A stretch of 64,000 nucleotides of DNA, taken from Minisyncoccota bacterium. GTDB lineage: Bacteria > Patescibacteriota > Minisyncoccia > Phycocordibacterales > UBA9973. Below the pieces are notes generated by a model. That model worked only from the letters and a program-made list of their open reading frames with translations. It searched no databases and was not told where the DNA came from. A program made the position numbers and the translations under genes. The stretch covers positions 196,917-260,916 of the forward strand of contig JBAZVG010000001.1 in NCBI GenBank assembly GCA_041661005.1. The letters run 5' to 3'. Positions 1,627-59,975 of this stretch are shown here, one piece after another. Positions within the stretch are counted from its first letter, which is position 1; every line of letters starts with the position of its first letter.

Positions 1627-1737
1627 AACCTATTTTTAAGCTTGATTTTTCTTTTTTTTTAACATAACATCACTTTAAATGTTGTTCAAGCCCTCTTCTG
1701 GGCTTTTTGTCATAAACCTCAATCAATACTCAAAACT

Positions 1738-2754
1738 ATGCAAGAACAAAATCAGGGGCTCGTGCAAGAGCTTCAGGACGTTCAGACGTTTATCATTGGA
1801 GACAGTAAAATCGCGCTCGAAATGCGTATTCTCGCCAAGAAGCTTGGAGAAACTGATCACAAGGTTCTCATCCAAGGAGAAACTGGAGTTGGGAAAGAAA
1901 ACGCTGCCAGAGAAATTCACAAGAACGGACGCCAAGATAAACCGTTCGTGCCAGTGAATTGCTCGGCACTGCCTGAGAACCTTATCGAAAGTGAATTGTT
2001 TGGTCACAAGAAGGGTTCATTCACGGGTGCTATCGAGGACAGGAAAGGTTACTTTGAAACAGTCGAGGATGGCACTCTCTTACTCGACGAGATAGGAACA
2101 TTACCTTTACCTTCGCAGGTGAAAATCTTGCGAGTTCTTCAAGATGGGGTATTTAGTCCAGTTGGCGATCGACGTCCAATTCAACTCAAGGCGAGGGTTA
2201 TTGCCGGGACAAACATCGACCTTGAAAATGCGATACATAAAGGAGAGTTTCGCTCGGATCTTTTCCATCGTCTGAATGTGATTCCATTTTTTGTTCCGCC
2301 TCTGCGAGAACGTTTGGAGGATGTGCCTCTACTCGTTGAGCACTTTCTCAATAAGGAACAAGGAGAGGACAAACTCAAAAGATTCACTGCGGAAGCAATG
2401 GTGATGATGCAGGGCTATCACTGGCCAGGCAACATTCGTGAACTTGAGAATGCAGTTGCGCGTGCAGTGTTTTTCTCTAACGGAGAGATGGACATTAAGG
2501 TTGGGCACCTTTGTCTTCATCCCAAACTCAGAAATATGGATGAATCCGATCCTGTTTCTGGTGATGAGTTTAGGAGAGAGGGGAGGTTCATAAATTTTTA
2601 TGAGCTTGAAGAGCTCTATCTCCGAAAGCTCTTGGTAGAAGCAAGAGGAAATGTTTATCGGAGTGCCATCATTTCAGGTTTGCATCGTAACACCATCATA
2701 AGGCAGGTTAGTGAGTTCAAACTTGAACATTTGACTAATAAGCATAAAAAATAG
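1738..2754 (+). CDS. Sigma-54-dependent transcriptional activator (AAA+ enhancer-binding protein domain plus C-terminal Fis-type HTH, no N-terminal sensor domain; PspF-like)
   Basis: Motifs GETGVGKE (Walker A), GSFTGA (GAFTGA-like sigma-54 contact), LLLDEIG (Walker B), RVIAGTN and FRSDLFHRLNV. C-terminal HTH reads RSAIISGLHRNTIIRQV. Confidence 0.8.
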   Translation: MQEQNQGLVQELQDVQTFIIGDSKIALEMRILAKKLGETDHKVLIQGETGVGKENAAREIHKNGRQDKPFVPVNCSALPENLIESELFGHKKGSFTGAIEDRKGYFETVEDGTLLLDEIGTLPLPSQVKILRVLQDGVFSPVGDRRPIQLKARVIAGTNIDLENAIHKGEFRSDLFHRLNVIPFFVPPLRERLEDVPLLVEHFLNKEQGEDKLKRFTAEAMVMMQGYHWPGNIRELENAVARAVFFSNGEMDIKVGHLCLHPKLRNMDESDPVSGDEFRREGRFINFYELEELYLRKLLVEARGNVYRSAIISGLHRNTIIRQVSEFKLEHLTNKHKK

Positions 2755-2785: not shown

Positions 2786-2825
2786 GCCAGTGCAACACCG
2801 AAAGGAAAAAAGTGCTGGCTTTTTA
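2786..2825 (+). terminator. Candidate rho-independent terminator after the EBP gene
   Basis: GCCAGTGC ... GTGCTGGC stem (with G-U pairs) followed by TTTTT. Confidence 0.45.
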
Positions 2826-2867
2826 GTTTTTTGTAGTTCTCGCTTGATTATTTAATTATTTAGATAT

Positions 2868-2908: not shown

Positions 2909-3130
2909 ATGTCTACAATATCTGTGCCATTAAATTCAAAATTAGAGCAGTCCCTAGATTATTTAGTGAAATCAGGTGTTGCTGACAACAGAGCCGCAGT
3001 GATGCGAAAAGCTTTGACTCGCTTAACTGAAGATGAGGCAGTTTCTGCTGTTTTGCGCGCGGAGCAGGAAGTTAAAGATGGGTTAATTTTAAGAGGTGAT
3101 CTGAGAAAATTGGCTAAAAAAATAAAATAA
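2909..3130 (+). CDS. Ribbon-helix-helix (CopG/ParD-like) antitoxin
   Basis: 73 aa with an N-terminal beta-strand then two helices, typical of RHH. Lies directly upstream of a RelE-like gene with a 5-nt gap. Confidence 0.55.
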   Translation: MSTISVPLNSKLEQSLDYLVKSGVADNRAAVMRKALTRLTEDEAVSAVLRAEQEVKDGLILRGDLRKLAKKIK

Positions 3131-3135
3131 ATTTT

Positions 3136-3393
3136 ATGAAAGTAGCCTATACGCCAGCTTTTATTAAGCAATTTAACACTCTTTCGAAAGAACTTCAGGA
3201 AGAAGTTTTGGCAAAAATAGAGCTTTTCAAAGATCGAAATAATCATAAGATGCTGAAAGTTCATAAATTACACGGTAAGCATTCCTCAAAATATAGTTTT
3301 TCCATTGATTATAAAAATAGAATTGTTTTTATGTATCTAACAAAACAAGAGATTATCTGTTTATTTATTGGTGATCATGATATTTATAAATAA
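3136..3393 (+). CDS. RelE/ParE-family toxin (mRNA interferase)
   Basis: 85 aa. C-terminal KLHGKHSSKYSFSIDYKNRIVFMY...IGDHDIYK matches the RelE/ParE pattern (G..LRvg.yRiiY ... ighR.d.Y). Confidence 0.6.
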   Translation: MKVAYTPAFIKQFNTLSKELQEEVLAKIELFKDRNNHKMLKVHKLHGKHSSKYSFSIDYKNRIVFMYLTKQEIICLFIGDHDIYK

Positions 3394-6856: not shown

Positions 6857-8581
6857 ATGGACAATATTAGTAAAAATAGAATATGTCAAAATTGTCGAGG
6901 TGAATTTGTAATCGAATCGGAGGATTTTAATTTCTACGAAAAGATGAAAGTTCCTGCGCCGACTTTTTGTCCGGAGTGTCGACTCATCAGGAGGCTTGTG
7001 TTGAGAAATGAGCGTATTTTATACAAACGTGAGTGTAATTTATGTAAAAAAAATATTATTTCGATTTATCATCAATCTGTACCTTTTCCAGTGTATTGTC
7101 TTCAATGCTGGTACGGCGATGGCTGGGATCCAGTTTCTTTCGGGCGGGACTATGACTTCTCTAGGCCCTTTTTTGAACAATGGAAAGGATTTTCCGATTC
7201 TGCTCCACGACTTGCTTTATGGCACAGAAATGCGATCAATTCCGATTACTCGAGCTTTGTAGGAGAGTCGAAGAATGTTTATTTATCAGTCTCGGTAGTT
7301 CTTGGATCAGAAAATGTATTTTATTCAAAATTTGTGGATAAATCAACGGATATTGTTGATTGTTTGAATATTAAAGACGGACAAATTCTTTATGAAGACA
7401 TAGAGGGCGAAAAAAATTACAATTGCCAGCACCTTTTCTTATCAAAGAATTGTATTGATTCTTTTTTTCTCGTTGACTGCACAAATTGCAGTAATTGTTT
7501 ACTTTCCCATAATTTGCGTAATAAAGAATTTTACATTCGTAATGTGAAATATTCAAAAGAAGAATATTTTAAAGAATTGGAAAAAATTAATTTAAAAAGC
7601 AGAGCGTCAAGAAAAATTTCATTGGAAGAATTTGAAAAAATCAAAATAAAATCTATTTATCGTTTTGCCAATATTGTAAAATCTGTGAACTCAACAGGGA
7701 ATAATCTTTTAAATGTTAAAAATTGTAAAAATTGTTTCGAAGTTTATGATGCTGAAAATTTAAAATATTGTTATCGGGTATTGAGATCTTTTAAAGATTC
7801 CATGGATACGAGTTATGGGATGAAATCTGAATTAATTTATGAATATATAACTGGCGCTAATACTGATTATAATGTGAAATTTTCTTCCTCTGGAATAAAT
7901 TATGTGCAAAATGCCGAATATACTGATTGTTGCATTAATTGTAATAATATTTTTGGTTGCATTTCTCTGAAGAATAAAGAAAACGCGGTTTTTAATAAAA
8001 TTTACACTAAAGAAGAATTTTTTAAACTTCGTGAAAAAATTATTGACCACATGAATGAAATGCCCTATGTTGACCAAAAGGGAAGAGTTTATAAATATGG
8101 AGAATTTTTCCCAATAGAATTGTCTCCGTTTGCCTACAATGAAACTTTGGCGCAGGAGATAGCTCCGATTACAGAGAAGCAAGCAAGCGCAGAAGGTTAT
8201 CCATGGCGCAAGTCGGACCAAAAGAATTTCAAAATTACAATTCCTGCGGAAGATATTCCAGACAACATCAATGAAGTAAGTGACAAAATTTTGAATGAAG
8301 TTTTGGGTTGCGCGCATGAAGGGAAATGTGAACATCAGTGTAATGAAGCTTTTCGCATAACCAATTATGAATTAAATTTTTATAAAAAACACAGTATACC
8401 ATTGCCGATTCTTTGTCAGAATTGCCGTTATTATGAAAGATCGAAAGTTATGCCATCACTCAAATTGTGGCACAGAAAGTGTATGAAAAAAGGTTGCGAA
8501 AATGAATTTGAAACCTCATATGCTCCAAATCGGCCGGAGATTATTTATTGTGAGCGTTGTTATCAGCAAGAAGTTTATTAA
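6857..8581 (+). CDS. Large cysteine-rich protein of unknown function (574 aa), paralog of 55332-57041
   Basis: ~40 Cys. N- and C-terminal modules read CxxC ... FY.KM.VP.PT.CP.CR, with internal C.NC.NCF.C..L.NK repeats. Clearly alignable end-to-end with the second copy. Confidence 0.8.
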   Translation: MDNISKNRICQNCRGEFVIESEDFNFYEKMKVPAPTFCPECRLIRRLVLRNERILYKRECNLCKKNIISIYHQSVPFPVYCLQCWYGDGWDPVSFGRDYDFSRPFFEQWKGFSDSAPRLALWHRNAINSDYSSFVGESKNVYLSVSVVLGSENVFYSKFVDKSTDIVDCLNIKDGQILYEDIEGEKNYNCQHLFLSKNCIDSFFLVDCTNCSNCLLSHNLRNKEFYIRNVKYSKEEYFKELEKINLKSRASRKISLEEFEKIKIKSIYRFANIVKSVNSTGNNLLNVKNCKNCFEVYDAENLKYCYRVLRSFKDSMDTSYGMKSELIYEYITGANTDYNVKFSSSGINYVQNAEYTDCCINCNNIFGCISLKNKENAVFNKIYTKEEFFKLREKIIDHMNEMPYVDQKGRVYKYGEFFPIELSPFAYNETLAQEIAPITEKQASAEGYPWRKSDQKNFKITIPAEDIPDNINEVSDKILNEVLGCAHEGKCEHQCNEAFRITNYELNFYKKHSIPLPILCQNCRYYERSKVMPSLKLWHRKCMKKGCENEFETSYAPNRPEIIYCERCYQQEVY

Positions 8582-15002: not shown

Positions 15003-16538
15003 TTAATTTCCCTTGATTATTTTAATATCTGCGCCGATGGAATTCAATCGCTCGGCGATTTCTTCGTAACCACGATTTATCATATAAACGTTTCGTAGTA
15101 TTGAAGTGCCACTAGCTCCAAGCATTGAGATAAGTATTACCATTGATGGTCGTAAGGCCGGTGGGCAAACGACTTGAGCTCCCTTTAACGCTGTTCCGCC
15201 GTTGATATAGAGGCGATGTGGATCTGCGAGGGTAATATCTGCGCCTAGGCGGTTTAATTCAGTCAGATATATCGCGCGATTCTCATAAACCCAGTCATGG
15301 ATCATTGTTTGACCTTTGGCCTTTATGGCAATAGGCACAAAGAATGGCAGGTTGTCTATATTTATTCCGGGATAGGGATTGGAGTGTAATTTATCATAAA
15401 GAGCTTTTAGTTTGCTTGGGAAAATTTCTACATCTACTAATTTTGTTCGTCCATTAAAAGAATAATAAATTTTTGAAGCTTTGAATTTTAAATTCATTCT
15501 TTTTAGTTTTTCCAATTCTAAAGAAAGAAAGTCTATGGGGACGCGAGTGATGCTGAGTCTCGAGTCAGTGATAATTCCAGCAGAAATAAACATCATGGAT
15601 TCTATAGGGTCTTCACTGTTCCAATATTCTATATCTTTATTTATATTTGCTACGCCATGCACGGTCAGATTGGCAGTGCCGATACCTTCTATTTTTACAC
15701 CCAAAGCTTCAAGAAAAAAACAAACTTCTTGCACCATATAGTTTGCGCTGGCAAAGTTTATTTTTGTGGCGCCAGGTATAAGAGCAGAAGCCATCAAAAC
15801 ATTTTCACAGGCCGTGTCTCCAGATTCATACATTACTATTTCACTTGGTTTTAGTTTTCGTGAAGAGATTTCATAATTCTTTGCCGTAGTCTTTACTTTT
15901 ACCCCGAGTTTTTCTAGGGCGTAGATGTGGGCGGCTATTGTGCGTTTACCTAGATTGCATCCATGTGGATGGGGGAGAGAAAAGGTTGATAATTTATGAA
16001 TGAGTGGACCCATGAGCATTACGACTGAACGAGTTTTGACCGCTGACTCTATGTTTATATTTTCTAAATTAAATTTCTCTCCTGGTGTGATGGTTAAAGT
16101 ATTCTGGTTTAGCCATTTTATTGCGACCCCGATACTTTCGAGAATTTCAATGACCCGATACACTTCCTCGATTCGCGCTATGCCATGCAAGGTTGTTGTC
16201 CCCCTGTTTAAGAGCGAAGCGCAAAGAAGCCCGACCGAACCATTTTTAGAAAAATTAGTTTTGATAGTTCCACTTAATTTTTTCCCTCCATGCACTTCGA
16301 AATCGATCGAATCATTTATAGAAACTATTTGATGATCTAAAACATTGCTTATTTTTAAAAGTAATTCAGTTGTAAAATTTTGTTCGCCTTTTTCCATTCG
16401 GGGGATAGAACTTTGAGAAGTATTCAGCGCTTTAGCAAATTGCTCTTGAGTCATTCCGCGGTGTTCGCGCAATTCTTTGATAAAATAACCTATCTTTTGT
16501 TGTTCGGTCTGTACTGTTGATTTTATATTTTTTGTCAT
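15003..16538 (-). CDS. murA: UDP-N-acetylglucosamine 1-carboxyvinyltransferase (MurA) with an N-terminal HTH_XRE DNA-binding domain fusion
   Basis: N-terminal ~75 aa reads GYFIKELREHRGMTQEQFAKALNTSQSSIPRMEKGE (XRE HTH). The rest is an EPT fold with a GCNLGKR loop and ~420 aa MurA-like sequence. Confidence 0.8.
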   Translation of the reverse strand: MTKNIKSTVQTEQQKIGYFIKELREHRGMTQEQFAKALNTSQSSIPRMEKGEQNFTTELLLKISNVLDHQIVSINDSIDFEVHGGKKLSGTIKTNFSKNGSVGLLCASLLNRGTTTLHGIARIEEVYRVIEILESIGVAIKWLNQNTLTITPGEKFNLENINIESAVKTRSVVMLMGPLIHKLSTFSLPHPHGCNLGKRTIAAHIYALEKLGVKVKTTAKNYEISSRKLKPSEIVMYESGDTACENVLMASALIPGATKINFASANYMVQEVCFFLEALGVKIEGIGTANLTVHGVANINKDIEYWNSEDPIESMMFISAGIITDSRLSITRVPIDFLSLELEKLKRMNLKFKASKIYYSFNGRTKLVDVEIFPSKLKALYDKLHSNPYPGINIDNLPFFVPIAIKAKGQTMIHDWVYENRAIYLTELNRLGADITLADPHRLYINGGTALKGAQVVCPPALRPSMVILISMLGASGTSILRNVYMINRGYEEIAERLNSIGADIKIIKGN

Positions 16539-19506: not shown

Positions 19507-20046
19507 TCATAATTTCCAGAAGTTGATAATTTTTATAAATTTTTCCACATTCTTTGAAATTCTAATTATATATTTAACTCTATTTTTCTTTATGTCCAAG
19601 ACTTTTCTTGCTTTTATTGCAAAGCCAATTTCTTGGAGCATATCCTCTATATCTCTAATTAGAGTATAACAAACTGACGTAAAATTTACCATTTTGTAGC
19701 CTCGATCACTATAGATTGATCCGTCTGTTTGGAATAATCCTCGCAAACATTCTTTTCTATAAACCTTATTTTCCTTGATCCAGCTAGGCACGCCTACCTT
19801 CTGTTTAATTTTTGAACCACCTTTAGCTCCCCATCCCAATATTTTTTCTAAATCATTTGAATAAATACATATGTCTAAGGCATTAACTCGATCTGTGATA
19901 GAAATTTTGTTTTGAGTAAAAATTATTTTTAGATTTTTAATTATATTTTCTACAATTAGAGGATACTTTTTATCACAAGTAATTCTAAGTCTAACAGCTC
20001 TTCCATTTGGATTCGACAAATTACCATCCCCGAGAGCTATGCCCAT
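19507..20046 (-). CDS. LAGLIDADG-family homing endonuclease (double-motif, free-standing)
   Basis: Two LAGLIDADG motifs: IMGIALGDGNL and LRGLFQTDGSIY. The ORF track starts it at 20127, but that extension is antisense to tRNA-Leu, so the internal ATG at 20046 is more plausible. Confidence 0.7.
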   Translation of the reverse strand: MGIALGDGNLSNPNGRAVRLRITCDKKYPLIVENIIKNLKIIFTQNKISITDRVNALDICIYSNDLEKILGWGAKGGSKIKQKVGVPSWIKENKVYRKECLRGLFQTDGSIYSDRGYKMVNFTSVCYTLIRDIEDMLQEIGFAIKARKVLDIKKNRVKYIIRISKNVEKFIKIINFWKL

Positions 20047-20086
20047 TATGTAGGCTATAGATTTTTTATTATTTATATGAGGCAAG

Positions 20087-20170
20087 TGCCGGGAGGGAGA
20101 CTCGAACTCCCACGGGGTTGCCCCCAAACGATTTTGAGTCGTTCGCGTAAACCAATTCCGCCATCCCGGC
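20087..20170 (-). tRNA. tRNA-Leu (anticodon CAA), type II with long variable arm
   Basis: Reverse complement reads GCCGGGA ... anticodon loop CUCAAAA ... variable stem GGGG-GCAA-CCCC ... T-loop TTCGAGT ... TCCCGGC-A. Confidence 0.8.
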
Positions 20171-30695: not shown

Positions 30696-30766
30696 TGGGG
30701 GATCGTCTAATGGTAGGACACATCCCTTTGAAGGATGTTATTTTGGTTCGAGTCCAAGTCCCCCAG
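30696..30766 (+). tRNA. tRNA-Gln (anticodon UUG)
   Basis: Acceptor TGGGGGA/TCCCCCA, anticodon stem-loop CATCC-CUUUGAA-GGATG, T-loop TTCGAGT. GC content jumps immediately at its 3' end. Confidence 0.8.
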
Positions 30767-32446
30767 CACGTTTGGACTCACAGAGGCGGATGCCTCATTT
30801 GGCCCTTTCGACAGGCCAGTATTTTCAGGTTCGATTGGCTTGTTTTCGGTTTCTGTATCCGACATGGACTTTTCGAGGATGAAGAACGGTTCGCGGGCTT
30901 CAATGCTCAGCTTTTTGGCCTTCAAAGTTAGGTTCGATCCGAATGTCACCAGCATCTCCTCTTTGGTCTTCGCATCGCCGTTCGCGAACCGCTCCCGAGC
31001 GGTCGAGGCAAATTCAAACGTGTCTTCGGACAGTTTTAACTGCTGCTCAATCCGCTTCCCGGCATCCTGAAGCAACTCCTCCAAAGCGGACTTTTCTTTG
31101 AGTAGCTTCACCCTCCTCTGACCGTATTCCTCATCCGATAGCTGGCTTCCGTCTGCGTTGCTGGACGAGGTTTTCAGACCCACCAGATTGTCGATTTCCT
31201 GCAAGCACGCTCGATATGCCTTCTGCTGGGCTTCGATGATGGCGCTTTGCTCCATGCTCTCCTTCGCGTGCAATTCATGGAGGAATTTGATGCAGTAGGC
31301 TTTGAATTTCTCGGAAATATGGATGCGGCCAAGATATTCACGAATCTGCCTTTCGAGATCAAATGCACTCACACTCTTCTGCGGACAAGATGGACGTTTG
31401 CTTTTTGAACAATGGTAATAGGTGTAGTGAAGGAAGAGCGGGTTCGTCATTTCTTCGATCGATGTCTGGCAGCGCGGGCAGGCGTTTCGCTTGCGGTAGG
31501 CAAACTTGAACCGGCATTGGCCACACATGACCTGGTGCTTTTCCTCAGCGGTCACCATCCGGTCACACTCGCCACAACGGATGAGGCCGGTGAAAGCAAA
31601 TTCAAAGTGCGATTGAGGCCGCGGACTGCCGTTGCGGCCAAGCAAAGTCTGCACCCGGTCATATTCCGCTTCGGTGATCATCGGCTCGTGCTTTCCCTGA
31701 TACCACTTGTTGCTGCCGTTTGGATATTCAAACCAGCCGTAATAGAAGGGCTTGGTGAAGATCTGGTAGATGGCGCTTCGGCAAAGAGGCTTGCCACCCA
31801 TCTTGCGCGTTGGCCTCGTGCGGAAGGCCCACTCTTTGTTGGCGATTTCCAGAATTCTCGGCGGGGTGTAGAGGCCGGTCAGCATCAAATCCCACATGCG
31901 ACGGAGCAGAGGAAAACGCTCCGGATCTTTGACCAGAGTGTTTTCGCCCGTCAGCTTGTCGGTGTGGTTCAAGTAGCCTGCCGGGGCGACGCCGGGATAC
32001 CAGCCGTTTTCGGTCTTGGTCTTGAGTCCCCGTTTTACGTTTTTGCTCAGGTCGTCCACGTATTTCTGCGCCATGCCGAATTCGATATACATGAGGATGA
32101 TATTGTCATCTTCACGGGCGTAAGTCTGGGCCGGGGTCATGATCCTGATGCCATGCTGTTTGATGCCCCAGATGATGGAACCTCCGTCCACCGGATTACG
32201 CGCCAGACGATCAAGTTTCCAGCAGATGACGCCGGCAGCTTCACCACGGTAAAGGCGTTGCATCATCTGATTGAACACCGGGCGCCCCGGATCTTTTGCG
32301 GATTTCGACTCGGTCAATACTTCGACAACTTGTAAATTTAACTTGGCCGCCAACTGCTCCAATTCGCGGGTTTGGGATTCAATGGAAAGAATCTGCCGGT
32401 CTTCGGCTTCGGATGATTTGCGACAATAGATGAAGTATCCTGACAT
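30707..32446 (-). CDS. Large serine recombinase (integrase of a tRNA-Gln-associated island)
   Basis: N-terminal resolvase catalytic domain IYCRKSSEAEDRQ..SIESQ ... LDRLARN, a recombinase domain, a zinc ribbon CGECDR...CGQC...CPRC, and a coiled coil. Its 3' end overlaps the tRNA-Gln 3' half on the opposite strand. Confidence 0.8.
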   Translation of the reverse strand: MSGYFIYCRKSSEAEDRQILSIESQTRELEQLAAKLNLQVVEVLTESKSAKDPGRPVFNQMMQRLYRGEAAGVICWKLDRLARNPVDGGSIIWGIKQHGIRIMTPAQTYAREDDNIILMYIEFGMAQKYVDDLSKNVKRGLKTKTENGWYPGVAPAGYLNHTDKLTGENTLVKDPERFPLLRRMWDLMLTGLYTPPRILEIANKEWAFRTRPTRKMGGKPLCRSAIYQIFTKPFYYGWFEYPNGSNKWYQGKHEPMITEAEYDRVQTLLGRNGSPRPQSHFEFAFTGLIRCGECDRMVTAEEKHQVMCGQCRFKFAYRKRNACPRCQTSIEEMTNPLFLHYTYYHCSKSKRPSCPQKSVSAFDLERQIREYLGRIHISEKFKAYCIKFLHELHAKESMEQSAIIEAQQKAYRACLQEIDNLVGLKTSSSNADGSQLSDEEYGQRRVKLLKEKSALEELLQDAGKRIEQQLKLSEDTFEFASTARERFANGDAKTKEEMLVTFGSNLTLKAKKLSIEAREPFFILEKSMSDTETENKPIEPENTGLSKGPNEASASVSPNVLGDLDSNQNNILQRDVSYH

Positions 32447-32532
32447 GGAAATGGGTGATTAAAATAAGGGAGGCGGGCGACCTTGGAGCCTGCATCCCTA
32501 TGCTAACGTACCGGCAAAATACGTCAATGAGG

Positions 32533-32796
32533 TCACTGGCTAAGACGGTTCTCGTCGGGCTCCTTGTCTGAACCCGGCTGCTTCAGAATCCCGAAGAAGC
32601 GAAGTAGACGCACAGCGATTTCTTGGATCTCGTCGTCGCTAAGACGCTTACCGAACTCCTCTTGGTAAATGGCTCTGAACTCCTCGATAGCTTCACGACT
32701 TAGTTGTTGTGGTGTTTTCATATCGTCCACTTTACTTGCTGTTACTCTTCGGCAAAGGACGGAAGAATTGCCACATACGGCATGTCCGCATTGCAC
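32533..32796 (-). CDS. Small helical hypothetical protein upstream of the recombinase (possible directionality or regulatory factor)
   Basis: ORF only; the likely true start is an internal Met (MKTPQQLSREAIEEF...). Confidence 0.3.
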   Translation of the reverse strand: MQCGHAVCGNSSVLCRRVTASKVDDMKTPQQLSREAIEEFRAIYQEEFGKRLSDDEIQEIAVRLLRFFGILKQPGSDKEPDENRLSQ

Positions 32797-33024
32797 TTGG
32801 AACTAGAATTCGGGGCACCTCCCTTGACGAATAGCGAGTTTCGTGCTTAAATACGAAAACCTTCCACCGAGTTCAAGAAGCTCGGTGTTTAATAGGTTTG
32901 CCATTTCTGGCAAAGGTTCCCGCCTTTGGTATTTTTACCATTGAGATATGGTGGTGTCGTGGAACTCGCATTGGGTTCCTCCGCTTCCACACTGATGACT
33001 TCACTTCAACTTCCAAACTATTTG

Positions 33025-33366
33025 CTATCTAATCGAAAACGCCTGACTCTTTCTCAAGAAGAGGTCGCATTTCTGTTGGGAGCGGGAAGGCGGCGTATTG
33101 TCCACCTTGGTCGTCGCGGCGAGCGTGACCCGCGAGAGGCGGTTGCCGGCATCGTCGTAGGCGTATGACTCAGCCGAACCGTCGGAATATGCGGCGTTGG
33201 TGAGGCGGGACAGGGGGTCGTGGGAATGCTCGAAAGTGGCGCCATTTACTTGCGATATCGCAAGGATAATGCAACCGCAGGCCAAAACGTAAACAGCGGT
33301 AAACATAATACACCTCATACTAGTTATTGTTAAATACGTTAAATACGATTCGGATAACCAACCCAA
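33025..33366 (-). pseudogene. Fragment: signal peptide plus a single YD/RHS repeat (YAYDDAGNRL), likely a remnant of an RHS-family protein
   Basis: Hydrophobic N-terminus MFTAVYVLACGCIILAISQVNGA, then a YxYDxxGRL-type repeat, then an unrelated tail. Confidence 0.4.
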
Positions 33367-33471
33367 TCATTGTAATCGAAATAACTAACCACATAGGTGG
33401 AAGAAGCGGCCCATCATGACCGAAAAATAAACCACGTAAAAACGAAATTATCTGCTGGATTGTTTGCTTTT

Positions 33472-34962
33472 TCATGGAAGCTGAAAGAGATTTATATAAG
33501 CGTTCACACCCTGTTGAATTTGATCGCCTCGCAGTTGGAAAAGATTTAACGTATAGGTGTTCAAAAAAACAGCGCTATACGAAGTCAAAGCATCATCAAC
33601 AGACTGCCACGCCTCAAGCGGATTATGTAGTGCATACGTCAGGTTCTCGTCAATGTGCATAATACTTTCACCCAGAGTGCTGAAATCGACGCCCCGAGCA
33701 CGCAATTCGGCCTGACTTGATTGGAAAACGCCGTAAACAGTGGAGGCCCTTGCAGTTAATCTGAGCGTGCGACCGATACCATGAAGGTCGATAACGTTTC
33801 CCGGTGATAATCGCAGTTGTCCAATCGTAACTCGACCGTATCCCGTATCCACATACAGTTCGAGCCGCGAACCAATTTCGCGCAACAGCCATTCAATCGA
33901 TTCTCTTGGCAAATCGCCAAAATTTAATTGACCGAATATATTGCCTGAGGTTGTTCCTCCTTCCTGCGCCGACAAGCCACTTACATCAAGCCATTTCAAA
34001 GGATTGTTCAGCGCATACACATAGCGATTCAAACTCTGCCCGTCGCTGTCCTTCCCAGTAACTGGGTCTTTAGTGGCAAATCGGCCCAGTTGCGGGCTGA
34101 AATAGCGAGCGCGGGCATGATAAAGACCATTACCGTCATCCATGATACCATACCGCCCCAGATAACGGAAGGGCTGCGGAGAATCCCCCTCGGAATTCGC
34201 CACGACGCCAAACGAATCAAACGCGTAGGCGTCGGTTTCGTCTCCGTTGGTGTTGAATGAATCATTCCCACCGATGGACTGAACTTGATGCGAATACAGT
34301 TTGTTAATCAGACGTTCGCGTTCCATGAACTGCTCTGGTTGCAGAAATGGACGATCCCAGCGTAAGTAGTGTTTGAAATAAATACATCTGAGAATGGTTC
34401 GCATCTCTGACGCACTAACGAGTACACGCTGATCTGGTAAGAGCACCATTAAGTCTGCTGGATAACTTGTCTGTCCATCGTAAGTTTGAAGAACTGGATA
34501 ATGGTAAGCAAAATCCACGGTGCGAAATCCGAGTCGCTTGAAATACCCGATCAGTTTGTCGTCGGGCTCCCATTGTTGGGAACTATTCCGCCTCCGTGCT
34601 ACCTCAAACACAATGGAAAAACCAGGTGGGTAGTTCTGTGCGAGAAACTGTTCTATACTCCTAATAGCACGACTTGGCAAAAGGCCAGGCCGTTTGGAGT
34701 CGCGAATGCATAGATACTCAAAGAAGAAAAGTTGTTCCTCTATGAAAAAGCTGTACTGCAAATATCCCACAACGGTGTGGTCATTTTGAAGTGCAAAGCA
34801 TTTGAACTCATCGGCGAGAACTTCTTTGCTGTGCTCGATCCAATAGAGAATCTGGCGCTCTGGATTCTGAGCTTCCGGCAGTATGGTTTCCCGGTAGATA
34901 CTCAAAGCTGCATACAAGCGATTCTTCCCGCGATTTGTCCGGTCGATTGGCTTAAGAAACAT
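33472..34962 (-). CDS. Chimeric protein: N-terminal GNAT-like fold, RHS repeat-associated core domain, C-terminal ~170-aa variable (toxin-like) domain
   Basis: The core reads PFRYLGRYGIMDDGNGLYHARARYFSPQLGRFATKDPVTGKDSDGQSLNRYVYALNNPLKWLDVSGL, which matches the RHS core consensus (..Y.ARYYDP..GRF.S.DP ... N.Y.Y..NNP....DPSGL). The N-terminus FSIVFEVARRR..KLIGYFKRLGF is GNAT-like. Confidence 0.55.
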   Translation of the reverse strand: MFLKPIDRTNRGKNRLYAALSIYRETILPEAQNPERQILYWIEHSKEVLADEFKCFALQNDHTVVGYLQYSFFIEEQLFFFEYLCIRDSKRPGLLPSRAIRSIEQFLAQNYPPGFSIVFEVARRRNSSQQWEPDDKLIGYFKRLGFRTVDFAYHYPVLQTYDGQTSYPADLMVLLPDQRVLVSASEMRTILRCIYFKHYLRWDRPFLQPEQFMERERLINKLYSHQVQSIGGNDSFNTNGDETDAYAFDSFGVVANSEGDSPQPFRYLGRYGIMDDGNGLYHARARYFSPQLGRFATKDPVTGKDSDGQSLNRYVYALNNPLKWLDVSGLSAQEGGTTSGNIFGQLNFGDLPRESIEWLLREIGSRLELYVDTGYGRVTIGQLRLSPGNVIDLHGIGRTLRLTARASTVYGVFQSSQAELRARGVDFSTLGESIMHIDENLTYALHNPLEAWQSVDDALTSYSAVFLNTYTLNLFQLRGDQIQQGVNAYINLFQLP

Positions 34963-35287
34963 AGATAATTGTTAATTATCCGTGATGTGGGCGAGATGTC
35001 TTGTTCGGAAATGTGTGTTTCGTATCCGACATTGCGGTAGTCAGTGCAGGAGACCAAGGAAGATGTTGCTAGTCTGCTGGATTCCTCTCTCTTGGTTCTT
35101 CGCAAGACAGTGTTCTGTCACAAAAGTGATCGAATTACAGTGGGCTTTTGTTTTCGGAGCGAGGCTTTGATAACGGATTTCTGGTGCATACACATACCAC
35201 AGCCTAATGTTTTTGAATTACTGGTCTATGAGTTATGATTGTCCTCCTGCGAGATTTATAGAGAAATAGTTTGCTGGATGAGGGCGT

Positions 35288-35761
35288 ATGTTGAGGTATA
35301 TGCATATTTGGTGCTATAATGAGAACATGTGGGTTATTTATGCATTTATAGCTGCATTGTTGTGGGGTCTTGATTATGCACTTACAGAAAAAGTACTAAA
35401 CAGGATTACATTCTCGACATTGCTCAGTATTGAGTTGTTTTTCGGTCTGCTTGGTATGCTCTTGTTGGGGCTTTTACGGGGGACGTATTGGAAAGACTGG
35501 TCAGTGATTCTCTCTTCCCAAAAGATAATATGGCACGTTGTTATAATTGTGCTTGTGTTCAACATCGCCAACACTTTTATCGTTCTTTCCATTGGAAACA
35601 AGAACGCCACCCTTGCGGGCTTAATTGAGATTTCTTACCCCTTGTTTATTGCCGTTTTTTCGTGGTTCTTGTTCAAGGAGAGCCATGTTAACCTATGGAC
35701 AGGAATTGGTGCGGTATTGGTGTTTAGCGGGATTGGGTTGATCTACTACGTCAACAAATGA
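35288..35761 (+). CDS. EamA/DMT-family transporter half (4-5 TM), hypothetical
   Basis: Hydrophobic protein with an EamA-like WGLDYALTEK region; 157 aa, likely a fragment. Confidence 0.4.
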   Translation: MLRYMHIWCYNENMWVIYAFIAALLWGLDYALTEKVLNRITFSTLLSIELFFGLLGMLLLGLLRGTYWKDWSVILSSQKIIWHVVIIVLVFNIANTFIVLSIGNKNATLAGLIEISYPLFIAVFSWFLFKESHVNLWTGIGAVLVFSGIGLIYYVNK

Positions 35762-35862
35762 AGAGGAAAAGGGACGCTCATCCTTGCCGGCGTCGGCAAA
35801 TAAGAAAAAGGGCGACCCGATTGGATCGCCCTTGTGATTAGTAGTCTTCCGGCACCCAAGCG

Positions 35863-36240
35863 GTGAGTTTGTTTGAGCAGGCAATTTTGGTCGCTCAAGC
35901 ATTACATGATTTGCGATATGAAGGATTCTGGATGGGTAGTCTTGGTGTCCTTTATATGGAAGAAAAGCACTACAAGGACGCGGAAGCTTTCTTGCAACGC
36001 GCTTTGGCAATCGCTATTCAAATAGGTGACCAACGTTACGAAGGAACGCATTTGAGTTGGCTTGGGGATTTATACACCACGACGGGCCAATTTCAGAAAG
36101 CTCGTGAATGCCTTGAAAGGGCCGTGAAATTGGCAGAGGATCTGCAGATTGAATCATGGATTCAGCAGCGCAAAGCGAAAATTGAGAAATTGGAACGTTT
36201 GGAGAAGGAGGCGGGTGACCACGCTCGTCCTCAAATCTGA
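35863..36240 (+). CDS. TPR-repeat protein fragment
   Basis: Three TPR-like helical repeats (..AE.FLQRALAIA...GDQRYEG..L..LGDLY...GQFQKA.E.LERA..LA). Confidence 0.4.
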   Translation: MSLFEQAILVAQALHDLRYEGFWMGSLGVLYMEEKHYKDAEAFLQRALAIAIQIGDQRYEGTHLSWLGDLYTTTGQFQKARECLERAVKLAEDLQIESWIQQRKAKIEKLERLEKEAGDHARPQI

Positions 36241-36855
36241 TTGGACCTTATTGGACAAAGCTCGAACTCTTTTCGATGAACATCGAAGTGATACGCAGAA
36301 AACGATGCCGATGAACCGACCGGATGATTTCACCGTCGCGCTCGGTGATTTGGATGGGGGCAACCGCAGATGCGCGTTTGAAACGGGGAAGACGATGGGA
36401 TTCCATCCATCCACGGTAACGAAGATCAAGCTCCTAATGTAGGAGGCGGGGTTTGCGCACTGCGCCAAGTCACATAATCTCGGTGATGTTTCAGTATAAT
36501 CATTGGAAGCAAATTGTCACTATTACATTAACACTCTGCAATCCTAGCTTGACGGACAATAGGCACTTACTTACGGATAAACGATAAAAGCCCCTTCGGG
36601 GTGTTGGATGATGAATAATGGATGTTCAAACGCGCCAATATCGTAGCACAAAAAAAACTCCGAATACATACAATGACGTATTCGGAGTCACGCTTTGATA
36701 CAACCAACAGATGCGTGATTCTTGTTGGGCGACCCTTTGGTCCGCTCAAGGCTCGGGTAGATCCAAGAGAAGCCGAGTTAAGACGAGGTTATCCCAGGGA
36801 ACTCGGACTGCTGGGACACACATTATAGCACAGGTAAGTGGCAATGTGTCATCAT

Positions 36856-37581
36856 CTAAACATTGTCGTCTTGATTTAGTCCACCCCTTACCTCCGCTAG
36901 CCTCCGCGACAGAGACAGCAATTCGTCTTCCATTCCAAAATATGACCAGTCCTGAATGTAGCGGGTGTAGAACGAGTAAATGCCAGCACTGAATCCGTTC
37001 AATAGCCTATCCGATATCCACTCATTTCCAAACTCAATACGGAAATCATCGAGAATGTCATCATTCTTGAGTCTTAAGAGTTCCGCAGCTTCGCCTTCAA
37101 CTGCGTCTTGGCACAACGCTAAAACCTCTCGACAGCGTTGCCTGATGTCTAACTGGTGCGTCGGAATACGGGTCCAGTTATGGCGTTCGGAGAGGTGGAG
37201 GTCATCTCTAAAGCATCCAAGGAGTGTATCGTTAGTCGCCAATTCTTCCCAGATCTTCCGGGCTCTTGGAGTGACCGTAATTGCGTCGCCTGGACTCAAT
37301 AAAGATGGTGCATACCCTCTGTCAGATTCAATCAAGCGTTCGGCATATAATTCATCGAGCATGTCGCTCATCTGCTCTGGCTTTTTCGCGAAATAGCTAG
37401 CACCAATTGCATTCATGGCATCCAACGTCCATGGCGACCGTGTGCGCTCTTCAACGAATGGTTCCACCAGTCGGCGATGAGAATGCGGCTGCCACAACGG
37501 CAGCAGATGGGGAATCAACCAGCGCTTGCCACCCGGCCATTTGAGCGGTGGCCGGTTCTCCGTTGTGCTCGTAATCGGCAA
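36856..37581 (-). CDS. Hypothetical protein with an N-terminal remnant of a D12-class (Dam-like) adenine MTase motif
   Basis: PLKWPGGKRWLIPHLLPL....RLVEPFVE matches the Dam N-terminal motif (KWAGGK..L...I......Y.EPF.GGG), but the rest is unrelated. Confidence 0.35.
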   Translation of the reverse strand: MPITSTTENRPPLKWPGGKRWLIPHLLPLWQPHSHRRLVEPFVEERTRSPWTLDAMNAIGASYFAKKPEQMSDMLDELYAERLIESDRGYAPSLLSPGDAITVTPRARKIWEELATNDTLLGCFRDDLHLSERHNWTRIPTHQLDIRQRCREVLALCQDAVEGEAAELLRLKNDDILDDFRIEFGNEWISDRLLNGFSAGIYSFYTRYIQDWSYFGMEDELLSLSRRLAEVRGGLNQDDNV

Positions 37582-37743
37582 GGCTGGAGAGAAGTCACGC
37601 GAGTTGTGACTGACGACAGAAACACGCCTTTGAAATGGGCGTAGATGAGTGCGGCTGCCCGTTCTGCTTTGTGACCATAGGCTCGAACATCGTCCAGTCC
37701 TCTCAGCATTTTAAATGAGAGTGATTACTTGCAATTATCCTTG

Positions 37744-37766
37744 CTTGCAATGAAAAAAATTGCAAG
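37744..37766. promoter_or_regulatory. Dyad CTTGCAAT-N7-ATTGCAAG (plus an extra TTGCAAT half-site at 37729) upstream of an extended -10 (TGATATAAT ~37787-37795) preceding the putative REase gene
   Basis: Read from the sequence. Confidence 0.4.
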
Positions 37767-37801
37767 TTTATAACTTTCTAGGAAAGTGATATAATCCCAA
37801 C

Positions 37802-38638
37802 ATGTCTAGTAATTTAATCGGAAAAACAGAAGCTATCAATTTTCTTAATGTATCAGAAAAAGATTTTAAAAATTACCATGAATCTAGTAAAGAAATAGAA
37901 GGTCAAAAAATATCAGGAAGATGGTATTTTGATAAACAAAAATTAGAAGAATGGAAAAAATTAAAGGGAGAAAGAACCATATTTTTAACTATTAGTGAAT
38001 ATGAAAAATGTTTTCAATTTGCAATTAAAATGGTTTATGGAGGACTTTCTCTTAATGGAATAAGAGGACAAAGAACAGAGGTTCAAGCAGCAGACGATGT
38101 TATTTTAGGAATTCTTGCAGAACATGCTGTTAAGAATTTTCTAAAAAATAAATTCTCAATCGAAATAGAATTAGACGAAGAAGTTCACCCAGAACGTATT
38201 ACCCCTCAAGACTTTGATAAAATCAAGGTAAATAATGTTTTCAAAACACCTAAAATAGGTGTGGGTATCAAAGCAAGTAAAATGAAAAACGCCTTTTTGG
38301 TTTTAGGAGGTAATGAAGTAGACCTCAAGGAAAGAAGAAGTGATGTTTATGTATTTGCCAGAGTAGGTTTACCAAGCGACCACTTATTTAGGATTTTACG
38401 AGACCATTCATTCTTTAAACAAGTAAGAGAATTTATGGATAAAGATAAAAAATTTAGAAAAATAGAATTACTAAAACCAATTCCAATATGGATATGTGGT
38501 TTTACATACAAAGAAGAGTTAGAAAAAGTAACTGAAATTCCGGGTCAAGAATTTGCAAATGGGTATAGATATGTTAAGTCTGTAAGTAAACTTCACAACT
38601 CAGACCAAGACTGGAAAAATCTTATAAAAAAACTTTAA
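37802..38638 (+). CDS. Putative type II restriction endonuclease with N-terminal excisionase/MerR-type HTH (HTH_17-like)
   Basis: Convergent with and abutting a C5-MTase gene (2-nt gap). N-terminus LNVSEKDFKNYHES..ISGRWYFDKQKLEEWKK matches the (G)RW.F....L..W pattern. No clear PD-(D/E)xK motif could be assigned by eye. Confidence 0.5.
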   Translation: MSSNLIGKTEAINFLNVSEKDFKNYHESSKEIEGQKISGRWYFDKQKLEEWKKLKGERTIFLTISEYEKCFQFAIKMVYGGLSLNGIRGQRTEVQAADDVILGILAEHAVKNFLKNKFSIEIELDEEVHPERITPQDFDKIKVNNVFKTPKIGVGIKASKMKNAFLVLGGNEVDLKERRSDVYVFARVGLPSDHLFRILRDHSFFKQVREFMDKDKKFRKIELLKPIPIWICGFTYKEELEKVTEIPGQEFANGYRYVKSVSKLHNSDQDWKNLIKKL

Positions 38639-38639
38639 T

Positions 38640-39647
38640 CTAGTATGCCATGGCTAGGGACAACCTAGGTTGTGTAGCTTGTTGCGTTTGTCCATTCAGC
38701 ACCTCCTGAATATTGTTCGCAATTCTACCAATGACAGAAATACTTACGGAATTACCGAATTGTTTATATAAATGTGAATCTGAAATATTTGGTAATTTAT
38801 AGGAATTAGGAAAACCTTGTAGGCGAGCACATTCTCTTGGTGTTAACTTTCGTATACCACGAGAATCCCTTACTAAGGGGACATTATGACCTCCTGTACC
38901 CATATTTGCAGTTAAAGTAGGACATACTCCACTTTTATTATGTCTTATATATTGTCGTCTCCATTGATAGACATCTCCAATTTCAAAATCGTACTTTTTT
39001 AACTTTTCAAACAAAGGTTTGTCGTTATAATAGTATTTCTGATCAATAAATTCTGGCTTTTCCAAAATATCTAAAACAGTTTTATTTCTTTCAATTTTTT
39101 CAGGAAATTCAAAACTATTAATATATCCAGTATCTTTTCTAAAACCAACAATATATATCCGCTCTCTGTTTTGGGGAACATTCCCATAATGCATACTATT
39201 TAATATTTCAGCTTTAACATCATAACCAAGCTCATCCAATGTTTTCAGAATGACACGAAATGTATTTCCATTATCATGATTATAAAGATTTTTTACATTT
39301 TCTAAAAGAAAGCCAATGGGTTTTCTTTCATCAATTATTCTTGCAACATCAAAAAATAAATTACCCCTGTCATCTTTAAATCCATGACGATAACCAGCAA
39401 TAGAAAATGCCTGACATGGGAATCCACCCAATAAAAAATCAAATTGGGGTAAATCACTAATTTTAATTTTTCTTATATCCTCAACAGTTAAAGCTGTATC
39501 TTTAAAATTTAGATCGTAAGTATCTTTGCATTTAGGTTCAAAATCATTAGCAAAGACTGTATTAAAGCCAGCTTTTTCAAAGCCAATTCTTATACCTCCG
39601 ACTCCCGCAAATAAGTCTATTGTTCTATATTTTTTTACATTTGCCAT
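38640..39647 (-). CDS. DNA (cytosine-5)-methyltransferase
   Basis: Motifs I DLFAGVGG, IV GFPCQAFS, VI ENVKNL, VIII QNRERIYIVG, X RKLTPRECARLQGFP. Confidence 0.9.
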   Translation of the reverse strand: MANVKKYRTIDLFAGVGGIRIGFEKAGFNTVFANDFEPKCKDTYDLNFKDTALTVEDIRKIKISDLPQFDFLLGGFPCQAFSIAGYRHGFKDDRGNLFFDVARIIDERKPIGFLLENVKNLYNHDNGNTFRVILKTLDELGYDVKAEILNSMHYGNVPQNRERIYIVGFRKDTGYINSFEFPEKIERNKTVLDILEKPEFIDQKYYYNDKPLFEKLKKYDFEIGDVYQWRRQYIRHNKSGVCPTLTANMGTGGHNVPLVRDSRGIRKLTPRECARLQGFPNSYKLPNISDSHLYKQFGNSVSISVIGRIANNIQEVLNGQTQQATQPRLSLAMAY

Positions 39648-57041: not shown

Positions 57042-57045
57042 AATA

Positions 57046-59957: not shown

Positions 59958-59975
59958 CGGGACCCCGCCAAGGCG

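What the first reader, a model, noticed from the sequence alone, without database searches (positions are those of the whole stretch)
1738..2754. Stand-alone sigma-54 enhancer-binding protein (AAA+ plus Fis HTH, no sensor domain) in a minimal genome
All EBP hallmarks are present, including the GAFTGA-like GSFTGA loop, so this protein should require RpoN. It lacks any N-terminal regulatory domain (like PspF), implying constitutive activity or control by a partner protein. No rpoN or obvious -24/-12 promoter (TGGCAC-N5-TTGC) was found in this window. The one near-match at 16811 has the wrong spacing and is inside a CDS. Whether the organism has sigma-54 at all, and what this activator drives, is an open question.
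Basis: partly seen in the sequence, partly recalled or inferred. Interest (0 to 1): 0.5.

Follow-up and report, generated by a model that had tools for sequence, protein, structure and literature searches.

The report
Sensor-less sigma-54-type activator in a CPR bacterium
The gene is a real, intact sigma-54-type AAA+ activator without a sensor domain, and it belongs to a so-far undescribed family found in Parcubacteria-type ultra-small bacteria, a group where sigma-54 is reported to be almost absent; whether this genome has sigma-54 could not be checked.

Summary
Observation confirmed. ORF 1738..2754 (+) encodes a 338-aa enhancer-binding protein (EBP). It has a canonical AAA+ sigma-54-interaction domain, a GSFTGA loop, no sensor domain and a divergent Fis-type HTH. 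The window holds no rpoN and no credible -24/-12 promoter.

New context. The source is a Candidatus Paceibacterota (CPR) genome with an 813-kb contig. The gene is not a one-off:
- Positional orthologues sit in the same atpC|rsmI slot in three further lineages.
- Three sister genomes lack the gene.
- It evolves 2-12 times faster than its neighbours, yet its sigma-54-contact loop is almost frozen.
- A profile search shows about 50 clusters of sensor-less 317-364-aa EBPs (plus two truncated entries and one ParB_N fusion), the named ones from Parcubacteria lineages.
- Most of these carry an unusual active site (Asp74 with Walker B "NE"), and some sit next to, or are fused to, a ParB-like protein. 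The window protein keeps the ancestral canonical motifs.

A published survey found sigma-54 in only 5 of 2,177 CPR genomes and the EBP family in 30.

Verdict: a functional EBP. Sigma-54 dependence (about 0.5) and a sigma-54-independent role (about 0.4) remain unresolved, because the rest of the genome could not be fetched. It is a new member of a known kind, of moderate interest.

The parts
1738..2754 (+). CDS of the 338-aa sensor-less EBP (AAA+ domain plus a divergent Fis-type HTH)
   Evidence: The ORF is listed. The AlphaFold2 model has mean pLDDT 90.1, and Foldseek matches FlrC, NtrC1 and FleQ at TM about 0.9.
1792..2286 (+). AAA+ sigma-54-interaction core (residues 19-183). It includes Walker A at 1876-1899, N74 at 1957-1959, Walker B at 2077-2094, the L2 loop at 2152-2175 and R172/R178 at 2251-2271.
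   Evidence: Pfam PF00158 at E = 1.1e-60. These positions are invariant in alignments A1 and A3. Coordinates verified.
2014..2031 (+). L1 loop GSFTGA (GAFTGA-type sigma-54 contact loop)
   Evidence: Translation verified. The surrounding residues 84-104 are 90% identical to P0002 with dN 0.04, against 55% identity for the whole protein. GSFTGA occurs in 30 of the 95 homologues where the loop could be located.
2305..2517 (+). AAA+ lid domain (residues 190-260) with sensor II GNIRE at 2428-2442
   Evidence: Pfam AAA_lid_14 at E = 5.7e-21. Coordinates verified.
2596..2715 (+). Divergent Fis/NtrC-type helix-turn-helix (residues 287-326), preceded by a disordered linker at 2518-2595
   Evidence: A profile built from homologue C-termini aligns at residues 289-329 with 17.9 bits. 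AlphaFold2 predicts helices 287-301, 306-313 and 317-326 with pLDDT of 95 or more, and a linker at 271-280 with pLDDT below 50. Pfam HTH_8 gives no hit. This region is only 34% identical to P0002.
1642..1670 (+). Putative sigma-70-type promoter of the EBP gene (TTGATT, a spacer of 16-17 nt, then an A/T-rich -10 region)
   Evidence: The sequence is shown. The block is conserved in position in L002, L092 and L096, which have better -10 elements with an extended TG. This is an inference; the promoter-scan tool did not list it.
1688..1709 (+). Leader hairpin AAGCCC-TCTTCT-GGGCTT followed by a T-run, about 30 nt before the start codon. It could be the atp operon terminator, a leader attenuator, or both.
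   Evidence: The terminator scan lists it. It is conserved in four genomes, with stem covariation in L096 (AAGTCT/AGACTT). The formal pair count is weak: one compensatory pair among four sequences.
2786..2832 (+). Intrinsic terminator of the EBP gene: GCCAGTGC, an 18-nt loop, GTGCTGGC, then T-runs
   Evidence: The sequence is. RNAfold pairs 2786-2793 with 2812-2819. Equivalent terminators follow the gene in L002, L092 and L096.

Best explanation
**What is shown.** The gene encodes an intact bacterial enhancer-binding protein (EBP) under purifying selection. It has a clade-specific 18-residue N-terminus, a canonical AAA+ sigma-54-interaction domain, a lid, a flexible linker and a divergent Fis-type HTH. 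It belongs to a family of sensor-less EBPs whose named members come from Parcubacteria-type CPR lineages. In this lineage it occupies a fixed slot between atpC and rsmI. It has been inherited vertically, lost repeatedly and has evolved fast.

**What is inferred about mechanism.**
- Having no sensor domain, the protein probably assembles into an ATP-hydrolysing hexamer by default.
- It would then be controlled mainly through its own expression. Its promoter is followed by a conserved terminator-like leader hairpin.
- It binds DNA through the HTH.
- It uses the GSFTGA L1 loop to remodel a sigma-54-RNA polymerase closed complex at one or a few -24/-12 promoters lying outside this window. That requires an rpoN gene elsewhere on the 813-kb chromosome.

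**Confidence.** About 0.95 that this is a functional EBP-type AAA+ protein. About 0.5 that it works through sigma-54.
For: **Canonical domain and residues**
- Every residue invariant across 42 EBPs is present.

**Selection against a syntenic orthologue** (dS saturated)
- dN is 0.39 overall.
- dN is only 0.04 in the L1 region (90% identity).
- dN is 0.24 in the AAA+ core.

**Motif state**
- GSFTGA is a common natural variant. It is also listed among variants judged competent for sigma-54 activation in Desulfovibrio vulgaris.
- The window clade keeps the ancestral N74 / Walker B DE state. That state is found in 324 of 326 ordinary EBPs.

**Positional orthology**
- Orthologues occupy the same slot in L002, L092/L093 and L096/L097.
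- All four carry their own promoter block, leader hairpin and terminator.

**Established knowledge:** outside special cases that have lost the loop (TyrR, Rhodobacter NtrC), GAFTGA-bearing EBPs act through sigma-54. Deleting the regulatory domain of negatively controlled EBPs (NtrC1, DctD) gives constitutive activity.
Against: - No rpoN was found in the 64-kb window. None was found in 284 kb of CPR DNA around family members and sister loci, although the same query finds Desulfobulbus rpoN at E = 1.6e-94.
- No intergenic -24/-12 site above chance appears in the window. None appears within 10 kb of six other family members.
- Meheust et al. 2019 report sigma-54 in 5 CPR genomes of 2,177, against 30 with the EBP family.
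- The gene is a single-gene unit among housekeeping genes, with no cargo or target operon.
- The recognition helix of the HTH is poorly conserved between orthologues (34% identity). That is unexpected if a fixed upstream activating sequence is bound.
- Most family members have a derived ATPase site and some have a ParB-like partner. This suggests the family can work without sigma-54.
Confidence: 0.5

Rival explanations
1. Orphan EBP with a sigma-54-independent job. On this view the genome, like nearly all surveyed CPR genomes, has no rpoN. The protein is kept because its ATP-driven, DNA-bound ring and its L1 loop act on something else. Candidates are sigma-70 RNA polymerase (as FleQ, TyrR and NtrX-type relatives do) or a DNA-bound partner such as the ParB-like protein linked to the main branch of the family.
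For: - The published CPR survey found sigma-54 in 5 genomes against 30 with the EBP family, out of 2,177.
- No rpoN and no -24/-12 promoters appear in any of the CPR DNA held here.
- The gene has no cargo genes in its slot.
- The family's main branch has a conserved, derived active site. It carries D74 with Walker B NE in 43 of 51 members, against 2 of 326 ordinary EBPs.
- In L098 and L099 the gene lies 10-16 bp after a ParB-like gene, and P0402 is a fusion of the two.
- The GAFT[DG]A loop is conserved in that branch too, so loop conservation in this family does not by itself indicate sigma-54.
- The HTH recognition helix drifts fast.
Against: - The window protein is canonical at every sigma-54-specific position, and its L1 region is the slowest-evolving part.
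- No ParB-like paralogue lies next to it. The only ParB in the window is the chromosomal one, 26% identical to the partner type.
- The Meheust table lists only 921 widespread families, so a divergent CPR-only RpoN family would not be counted.
- To my knowledge, no GAFTGA-bearing EBP has been shown to work without sigma-54.
Confidence: 0.4
2. Decaying relic. On this view an EBP inherited or acquired from a sigma-54-bearing ancestor is no longer useful and is on its way to being lost.
For: - It is the fastest-evolving protein in its neighbourhood: 55% identity against 72-96%, and dN 0.39 against 0.03-0.20.
- It has been lost from three sister genomes.
- The HTH falls below the Pfam threshold.
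- The start codon has no obvious Shine-Dalgarno sequence in this genome.
Against: - The reading frame is intact in four lineages whose synonymous sites are saturated.
- All catalytic residues are retained, and the L1 region has dN 0.04.
- The AlphaFold2 model is confident, including the HTH.
- The promoter, leader and terminator are conserved.
- About 50 family clusters are maintained across Parcubacteria lineages.
Confidence: 0.07

Closest known systems
PspF (E. coli phage-shock activator)
   Same: A sensor-less EBP of similar size, with an AAA+ domain and a C-terminal Fis-type HTH. All PspF functional residues (K42, N64, F85, T86, D107, E108, R162, R168) have counterparts here.
   Different: - It scores well below the PspF equivalog cutoffs: 233.6 against 443.55 bits and 194.9 against 529 bits.
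- There is no divergent pspA operon and no PspA-type negative regulator nearby.
- The only pspA-like -24/-12 site, at 2929-2914 (-), lies inside an unrelated inserted ORF.
Response-regulator EBPs of the NtrC1 / DctD / AtoC / 'NtrX' type
   Same: These are the closest full-length relatives (43-46% identity). The window protein starts where their receiver-to-AAA+ linker sits (NtrC residues 121-460).
   Different: The receiver domain is absent, so control by phosphorylation is impossible. The nearest such relative, in L008, is a 446-aa ORF.
DNA-binding-domain-less or minimal EBPs in small genomes (Chlamydia CtcC, Helicobacter FlgR). Recalled from knowledge, not tested here.
   Same: They show that reduced genomes can keep a single sigma-54/EBP pair with a simplified activator.
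   Different: Those organisms have a documented rpoN, and their activators keep a receiver domain. Here the sensor is missing, an HTH is present, and rpoN is unverified.
EBP-family proteins that act without sigma-54 (TyrR, Rhodobacter NtrC, Brucella NtrX; FleQ at sigma-70 promoters; Dickeya VfmH)
   Same: They have the same domain family. They are precedents for EBP-type proteins regulating without sigma-54. VfmH carries GAFTDA and showed no sigma-54 interaction.
   Different: From knowledge, the classical sigma-54-independent members have lost the GAFTGA loop. The window protein retains an intact GSFTGA loop.
Main branch of the CPR sensor-less EBP family (for example P0392, P0397, P0399, and the fusion P0402)
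   Same: - The length and domain order are the same.
- They share the N-terminal 'QE.Q..P..IG.S..A..R.FA' and C-terminal 'FGL..LV..LK' signatures.
- P0392 occupies the same atpC|rsmI slot.
   Different: The main branch has D74, Walker B NE and mostly GAFTDA. It is often paired with, or fused to, a ParB-like protein. The window clade keeps N74, DE and GSFTGA, and has no such neighbour.

Membership tests
Bacterial enhancer-binding proteins (sigma-54 activators, Pfam PF00158) | AAA+ domain with Walker A, Walker B, sensor I and II and arginine fingers | tested here: met
   PF00158 at E = 1.1e-60. K53, D117, E118, T158, N159, R172, R178 and R234 are all conserved. Foldseek gives TM about 0.9 to FlrC, NtrC1 and FleQ.
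Bacterial enhancer-binding proteins (sigma-54 activators, Pfam PF00158) | GAFTGA-type L1 loop that contacts sigma-54 region I | tested here: met
   GSFTGA at residues 93-98. It is a frequent natural variant and is conserved in P0002, P0256 and P0391.
Bacterial enhancer-binding proteins (sigma-54 activators, Pfam PF00158) | C-terminal Fis-type HTH (HTH_8) for binding upstream activating sequences | tested here: inconclusive
   Pfam HTH_8 gives no hit. A homologue-derived profile aligns at residues 289-329 with 17.9 bits, and AlphaFold2 predicts a confident three-helix bundle.
Bacterial enhancer-binding proteins (sigma-54 activators, Pfam PF00158) | Co-occurrence with rpoN in the same genome | not testable with these tools
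   rpoN is absent from the 64-kb window and from 284 kb of related CPR loci.
Bacterial enhancer-binding proteins (sigma-54 activators, Pfam PF00158) | A -24/-12 (GG-N10-GC) target promoter | tested here: inconclusive
   There is no enrichment (42 against 41.2). All 25 best PWM sites lie in CDSs and the maximum equals that of shuffles. No site within 10 kb of six other family members exceeds 11 bits. Targets could lie elsewhere in the genome.
PspF (TIGR02974 / NF008622 equivalogs) | Score above the curated equivalog cutoff | tested here: not met
   233.6 bits against a cutoff of 443.55, and 194.9 against 529.
PspF (TIGR02974 / NF008622 equivalogs) | Divergent pspABC operon, with PspA as negative regulator | tested here: not met
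   The neighbours are atpC, a ParD/RelE-like pair, rsmI and mreB. There is no PspA family hit in the window ORFs scanned.
NtrC-type two-component response regulators | N-terminal receiver (REC) domain | tested here: not met
   There is no PF00072 hit. Only 18 residues precede the AAA+ core, and the 111-bp upstream spacer leaves no room for one.
   The window protein scores 480 bits against profile A5, while REC/GAF EBPs score 366 or less. The A4 alignment shows the signatures. Named members come from Zambryskibacteria, Paceibacterota, Doudnabacteria and the Parcubacteria group.
   The window protein has N74, DE and GSFTGA. It belongs to the canonical minority: 8 of 51 members with DE.

The most novel reading that the evidence does not exclude
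On this reading, a whole family of sensor-less EBPs has been kept for a long time in Parcubacteria-type CPR bacteria that have no sigma-54. The members keep an intact GAFTGA-type loop and are often paired or fused with a ParB-like protein. The window protein would be the ancestral-state representative of an AAA+ ring whose L1 loop engages a target other than sigma-54. This would be a sigma-54-independent use of the enhancer-binding-protein machine.
Probability: 0.35. Interest if true: 0.75.

Novelty: new member of a known kind. Interest (0 to 1): 0.45.

Why it matters
Sigma-54 with its ATP-dependent activators is the one bacterial transcription system that works like a eukaryotic enhancer, and EBPs are regarded as inseparable from sigma-54.

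CPR bacteria have tiny genomes, few regulators and, by published counts, almost no sigma-54.
- **If rpoN is present in this closed 813-kb genome,** it would be a very small natural sigma-54 regulon: one sensor-less activator in a CPR organism. That would make an attractive minimal model.
- **If rpoN is absent,** a conserved family with an intact GAFTGA-type loop would show that the EBP motor has a second, sigma-54-independent use.

Either answer can be obtained with a single HMM search on genomes that are already public.

Tried and rejected
1. **Fetching the rest of the source contig.** The look-up of encoding contigs returned only a 2.6-kb Logan contig for the EBP and nothing for a gene near the window's end.
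2. **Genome-contig scan with the two-sequence alignment.** It was not informative about CPR.
3. **Literature searches for sigma-54 or rpoN in CPR/Patescibacteria.** Nothing specific turned up apart from the Meheust 2019 family table. Its supplements give no per-lineage breakdown.
4. **Recent horizontal insertion into two genomes.** This was my working idea. I rejected it once the exhaustive search and context look-ups showed positional orthologues in more distant genomes and a wider family.
5. **A mobile or phage origin.** There are no relatives in viral contigs, and GC3 is only slightly above that of the neighbours.
6. **A known defence module.** PADLOC matches only the generic AAA+/HTH part of RtcR/PspF-type models, and the ParB-like partner has no hit.
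7. **GAFTDA as evidence of a pseudo-EBP.** Rejected, because GAFTDA occurs in 48 of 326 ordinary EBPs and in a D. vulgaris EBP listed as a sigma-54 regulator.
8. **P0013 as a third clade member.** Rejected: its contig has 60% GC, it sits next to a T2SS-F gene, and only the core is similar.
9. **The pspA-like site at 2929-2914 (-) as the target promoter.** It is judged probably chance. It lies in the first codons of a window-specific inserted ORF and is not conserved in L002.
10. **Formal covariation test of the leader hairpin.** With only four sequences and a one-base alignment shift, the support is weak.

Full report
**1. The observation**

ORF 1738..2754 (+) is real and encodes 338 aa.
- Pfam finds the sigma-54 interaction domain at E = 1.1e-60 (residues 19-183) and the AAA+ lid at 5.7e-21 (residues 190-260).
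- NCBIfam aligns it to the central and C-terminal parts of NifA, NorR, NtrC, AtoC, PspF and others, always far below the equivalog cutoffs.
- The best solved relatives are the FleQ, NtrC1, FlrC and PspF AAA+ domains.

Aligned with E. coli PspF, every functional residue has a counterpart:

| PspF residue | Window residue |
|---|---|
| K42 | K53 |
| N64 | N74 |
| F85 / T86 | F95 / T96 (in GSFTGA) |
| D107 / E108 | D117 / E118 |
| R162 / R168 | R172 / R178 |

GSFTGA is not a degraded loop. Thirty of the 95 homologues where the loop could be located carry it.

There is no sensor domain. Only 18 residues precede the core, and only 111 bp separate the gene from atpC.

The C-terminal HTH is the one soft spot.
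- Pfam HTH_8 does not hit, even on the isolated fragment.
- A profile made from homologue C-termini aligns at residues 289-329.
- An AlphaFold2 model (mean pLDDT 90.1) shows a disordered linker at 271-280 followed by three confident helices at 287-326.
- The model superposes on sigma-54 activator AAA+ domains at TM about 0.9 and rmsd about 2 Å.

**2. rpoN and promoters in the window**
- tblastn with E. coli RpoN finds nothing.
- Pfam scans of 40 larger ORFs give only housekeeping, island and purine-synthesis genes.
- TGGCAC-N5-TTGC with up to two mismatches occurs 42 times against 41.2 expected.
- An approximate position-weight scan recovers the E. coli pspA promoter as the top hit of its locus. 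In the window it places all 25 best sites inside CDSs, and its maximum equals that of shuffles.

**3. Where the gene comes from**

The identical protein is annotated at NCBI as a sigma-54 dependent regulator of a Candidatus Paceibacterota MAG, on an 813,355-bp contig.

A 52-55% identical protein, P0002, lies in another MAG in the same order: atp operon, atpC, EBP, rsmI, small genes, mreB, holB, frr, rseP. The ParD/RelE-like pair at 2909..3393 and the 574-aa ORF at 6857..8581 are insertions specific to this window.

The syntenic neighbours are 72-96% identical between the two genomes, but the EBP is only 55% identical. With dS saturated, dN is 0.39 for the EBP against 0.03-0.20 for the neighbours. 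The constraint is very uneven:

| Region | Amino-acid identity | dN |
|---|---|---|
| L1 region | 90% | 0.04 |
| AAA+ core | 67% | 0.24 |
| HTH | 34% | 0.82 |

**4. Presence and absence**

AtpC has more than 120 close relatives among Paceibacterota. Three such genomes have atpC followed directly by rsmI or mreB, with no EBP.

An exhaustive HMMER search then found more positional orthologues:
- P0256 (57% identical) lies in the same slot.
- P0392 (about 39% identical) also lies in the same slot, in a more distant genome.
- The Zambryskibacteria copy, P0306, follows the same SLT_2-L31-RF1 block that precedes the atp operon elsewhere.

On four concatenated housekeeping proteins:
- The three canonical-type genomes group together (61% bootstrap).
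- The P0392 genome is the most distant (76-79% identity).
- The EBP-less genomes are closer to the window (80-83%) than the P0392 genome is.

The simplest reading is an old gene at this position that has been lost repeatedly. My interim idea of a recent insertion is rejected.

**5. The family**

A profile of 13 sensor-less relatives separates about 40 further clusters from ordinary REC/GAF-EBPs (378-515 bits against 366 or less). Nearly all are 317-364 aa. The exceptions are two truncated entries and the 582-aa fusion P0402. Named members are from Doudnabacteria, the Parcubacteria group, Paceibacterota and Zambryskibacteria.

Across 51 members:
- The Walker A lysine, sensor I, both arginines and sensor II are invariant.
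- Forty-three have Walker B "NE" instead of "DE", nearly always together with Asp at the PspF-N64 position.
- Thirty-seven have GAFTDA or GAYTDA.

For comparison, among 326 ordinary EBPs Walker B is DE in 324, while loops with Asp at the fifth position (GAFTDA-type) are common (48). GAFTDA also occurs in a D. vulgaris EBP listed as a sigma-54 regulator. Dickeya VfmH carries GAFTDA and showed no sigma-54 interaction. So the loop variant is uninformative, whereas the D74/NE site is a true derived feature of the main branch.

In two distant members the gene lies 10-16 bp after a ParB-like gene, and P0402 is a ParB_N-AAA+-HTH_8 fusion. That ParB-like protein is only 26% identical to the window's chromosomal ParB, and none lies next to the window gene.

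The window clade (window, P0002, P0256, P0391) keeps the ancestral N74, DE and GSFTGA state.

**6. Sigma-54 in CPR**

Meheust et al. [quoted passage not shown] Their table gives 5 CPR against 792 non-CPR genomes for sigma-54, and 30 against 891 for the EBP family. Their text gives 2,177 CPR genomes. That table covers only 921 widespread families, so a divergent CPR-only RpoN family would be missed.

In the 284 kb of CPR DNA I hold around family members and sister loci there is no RpoN homologue, although the same query detects Desulfobulbus rpoN at E = 1.6e-94. No intergenic -24/-12 site above 11 bits lies within 10 kb of any of seven family genes.

**7. Transcription unit**

All four slot-sharing genomes have the same layout: a conserved sigma-70-like promoter block, then a hairpin with a T-run, then the start codon, and a clear intrinsic terminator after the gene. 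The hairpin stem appears to covary, but with four sequences the formal support is weak. For a sensor-less activator, control at the level of its own expression is plausible. This step is an inference.

**8. Verdict**

The protein is a functional, canonical, sensor-less EBP. It is not PspF, because it fails the equivalog cutoffs and has no psp genes nearby. It is not a response regulator, because it has no receiver domain. It is a member of a Parcubacteria family that, as far as my searches go, has not been described.

I could not settle whether it acts through sigma-54.
- **For sigma-54:** the canonical motifs and the frozen L1 loop.
- **Against:** the near-absence of sigma-54 in CPR surveys, the lack of promoters or rpoN in all the DNA available, the fast-drifting HTH, and a family whose main branch seems to have moved to another partner.

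My estimates are 0.5 for sigma-54-dependent activation, 0.4 for a sigma-54-independent role and 0.07 for a decaying relic. One HMM search of the already public closed genome would decide it.

Noticed in passing
window 2909..3130 and 3136..3393 (+): An AT-rich two-gene insertion between the EBP and rsmI. It is a weak ParD-like antitoxin (TIGR02606, 22.4 bits) plus a RelE/StbE-like toxin (TIGR02385, 16.6 bits), both below cutoff. It is absent from the syntenic loci L002, L092 and L096.
   Followed up: partly
window 2929..2914 (-): The site TGGCACAGATATTGTA closely resembles the E. coli pspA sigma-54 promoter (TGGCACGCAAATTGTA). It lies about 160 bp from the EBP stop codon, inside the first codons of the antitoxin-like ORF, and points toward the EBP 3' end. 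It is not conserved in L002 and is probably chance.
   Followed up: partly
window 1642..1709 (+); L002 7068-7172; L092 9880-10000; L096 9868-10000: The leader of the EBP gene is conserved in four genomes. A sigma-70-like promoter block is followed by a short hairpin and a T-run, with apparent stem covariation (AAGCCC/GGGCTT against AAGTCT/AGACTT). It could be an attenuator or a shared atp terminator.
   Followed up: partly
L098 3974-5905; L099 9059-10969; protein P0402: The main branch of the CPR EBP family has D74, Walker B NE and GAFTDA. In two loci its gene lies directly downstream of a divergent ParB-like gene, and in P0402 the two are fused (ParB_N-AAA+-HTH_8). The pair is not in PADLOC. 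Its function is unknown.
   Followed up: partly
window ~30,700..39,650: A higher-GC island (0.44-0.49 against 0.385 overall). It holds a serine recombinase at 30707..32446 (-) abutting tRNA-Gln 30696..30767, an RHS-associated-core protein at 33472..34962 (-) and a C5 cytosine methylase at 38640..39647 (-). It is probably an integrated element.
   Followed up: no
window 52,366..63,993 and 43,000..44,945: De novo purine genes (purL-like, GATase_5, purF-like, purD, purA, guaB) and pentose-phosphate genes (gnd, zwf). From general knowledge this is unusual for CPR bacteria, which mostly lack nucleotide biosynthesis. A purL-like gene also follows alr in L096.
   Followed up: no
window 15003..16538 (-): A MurA-type enolpyruvyl transferase (EPSP_synthase fold) carrying an N-terminal Xre-type HTH_3 domain (residues 17-68). 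The orthologues in L089 and L090 are shorter (439 and 484 aa).
   Followed up: no
window 6857..8581 (+): A 574-aa cysteine-rich ORF with no Pfam or NCBIfam hit, inserted between holB and frr. It is absent at that position in L002, L089, L090 and L096.
   Followed up: no
window 19507..20127 (-) and tRNA-Leu 20086..20170 (-): A LAGLIDADG-type ORF immediately downstream of tRNA-Leu. As called, it overlaps the tRNA gene.
   Followed up: no
L091 (Logan ERR14822417), 1446-2405: Another sensor-less EBP (P0013, 319 aa, no HTH hit), directly after a T2SS-F/PilC-type gene on a 60% GC contig. It is an unrelated, PilR-like context.
   Followed up: partly
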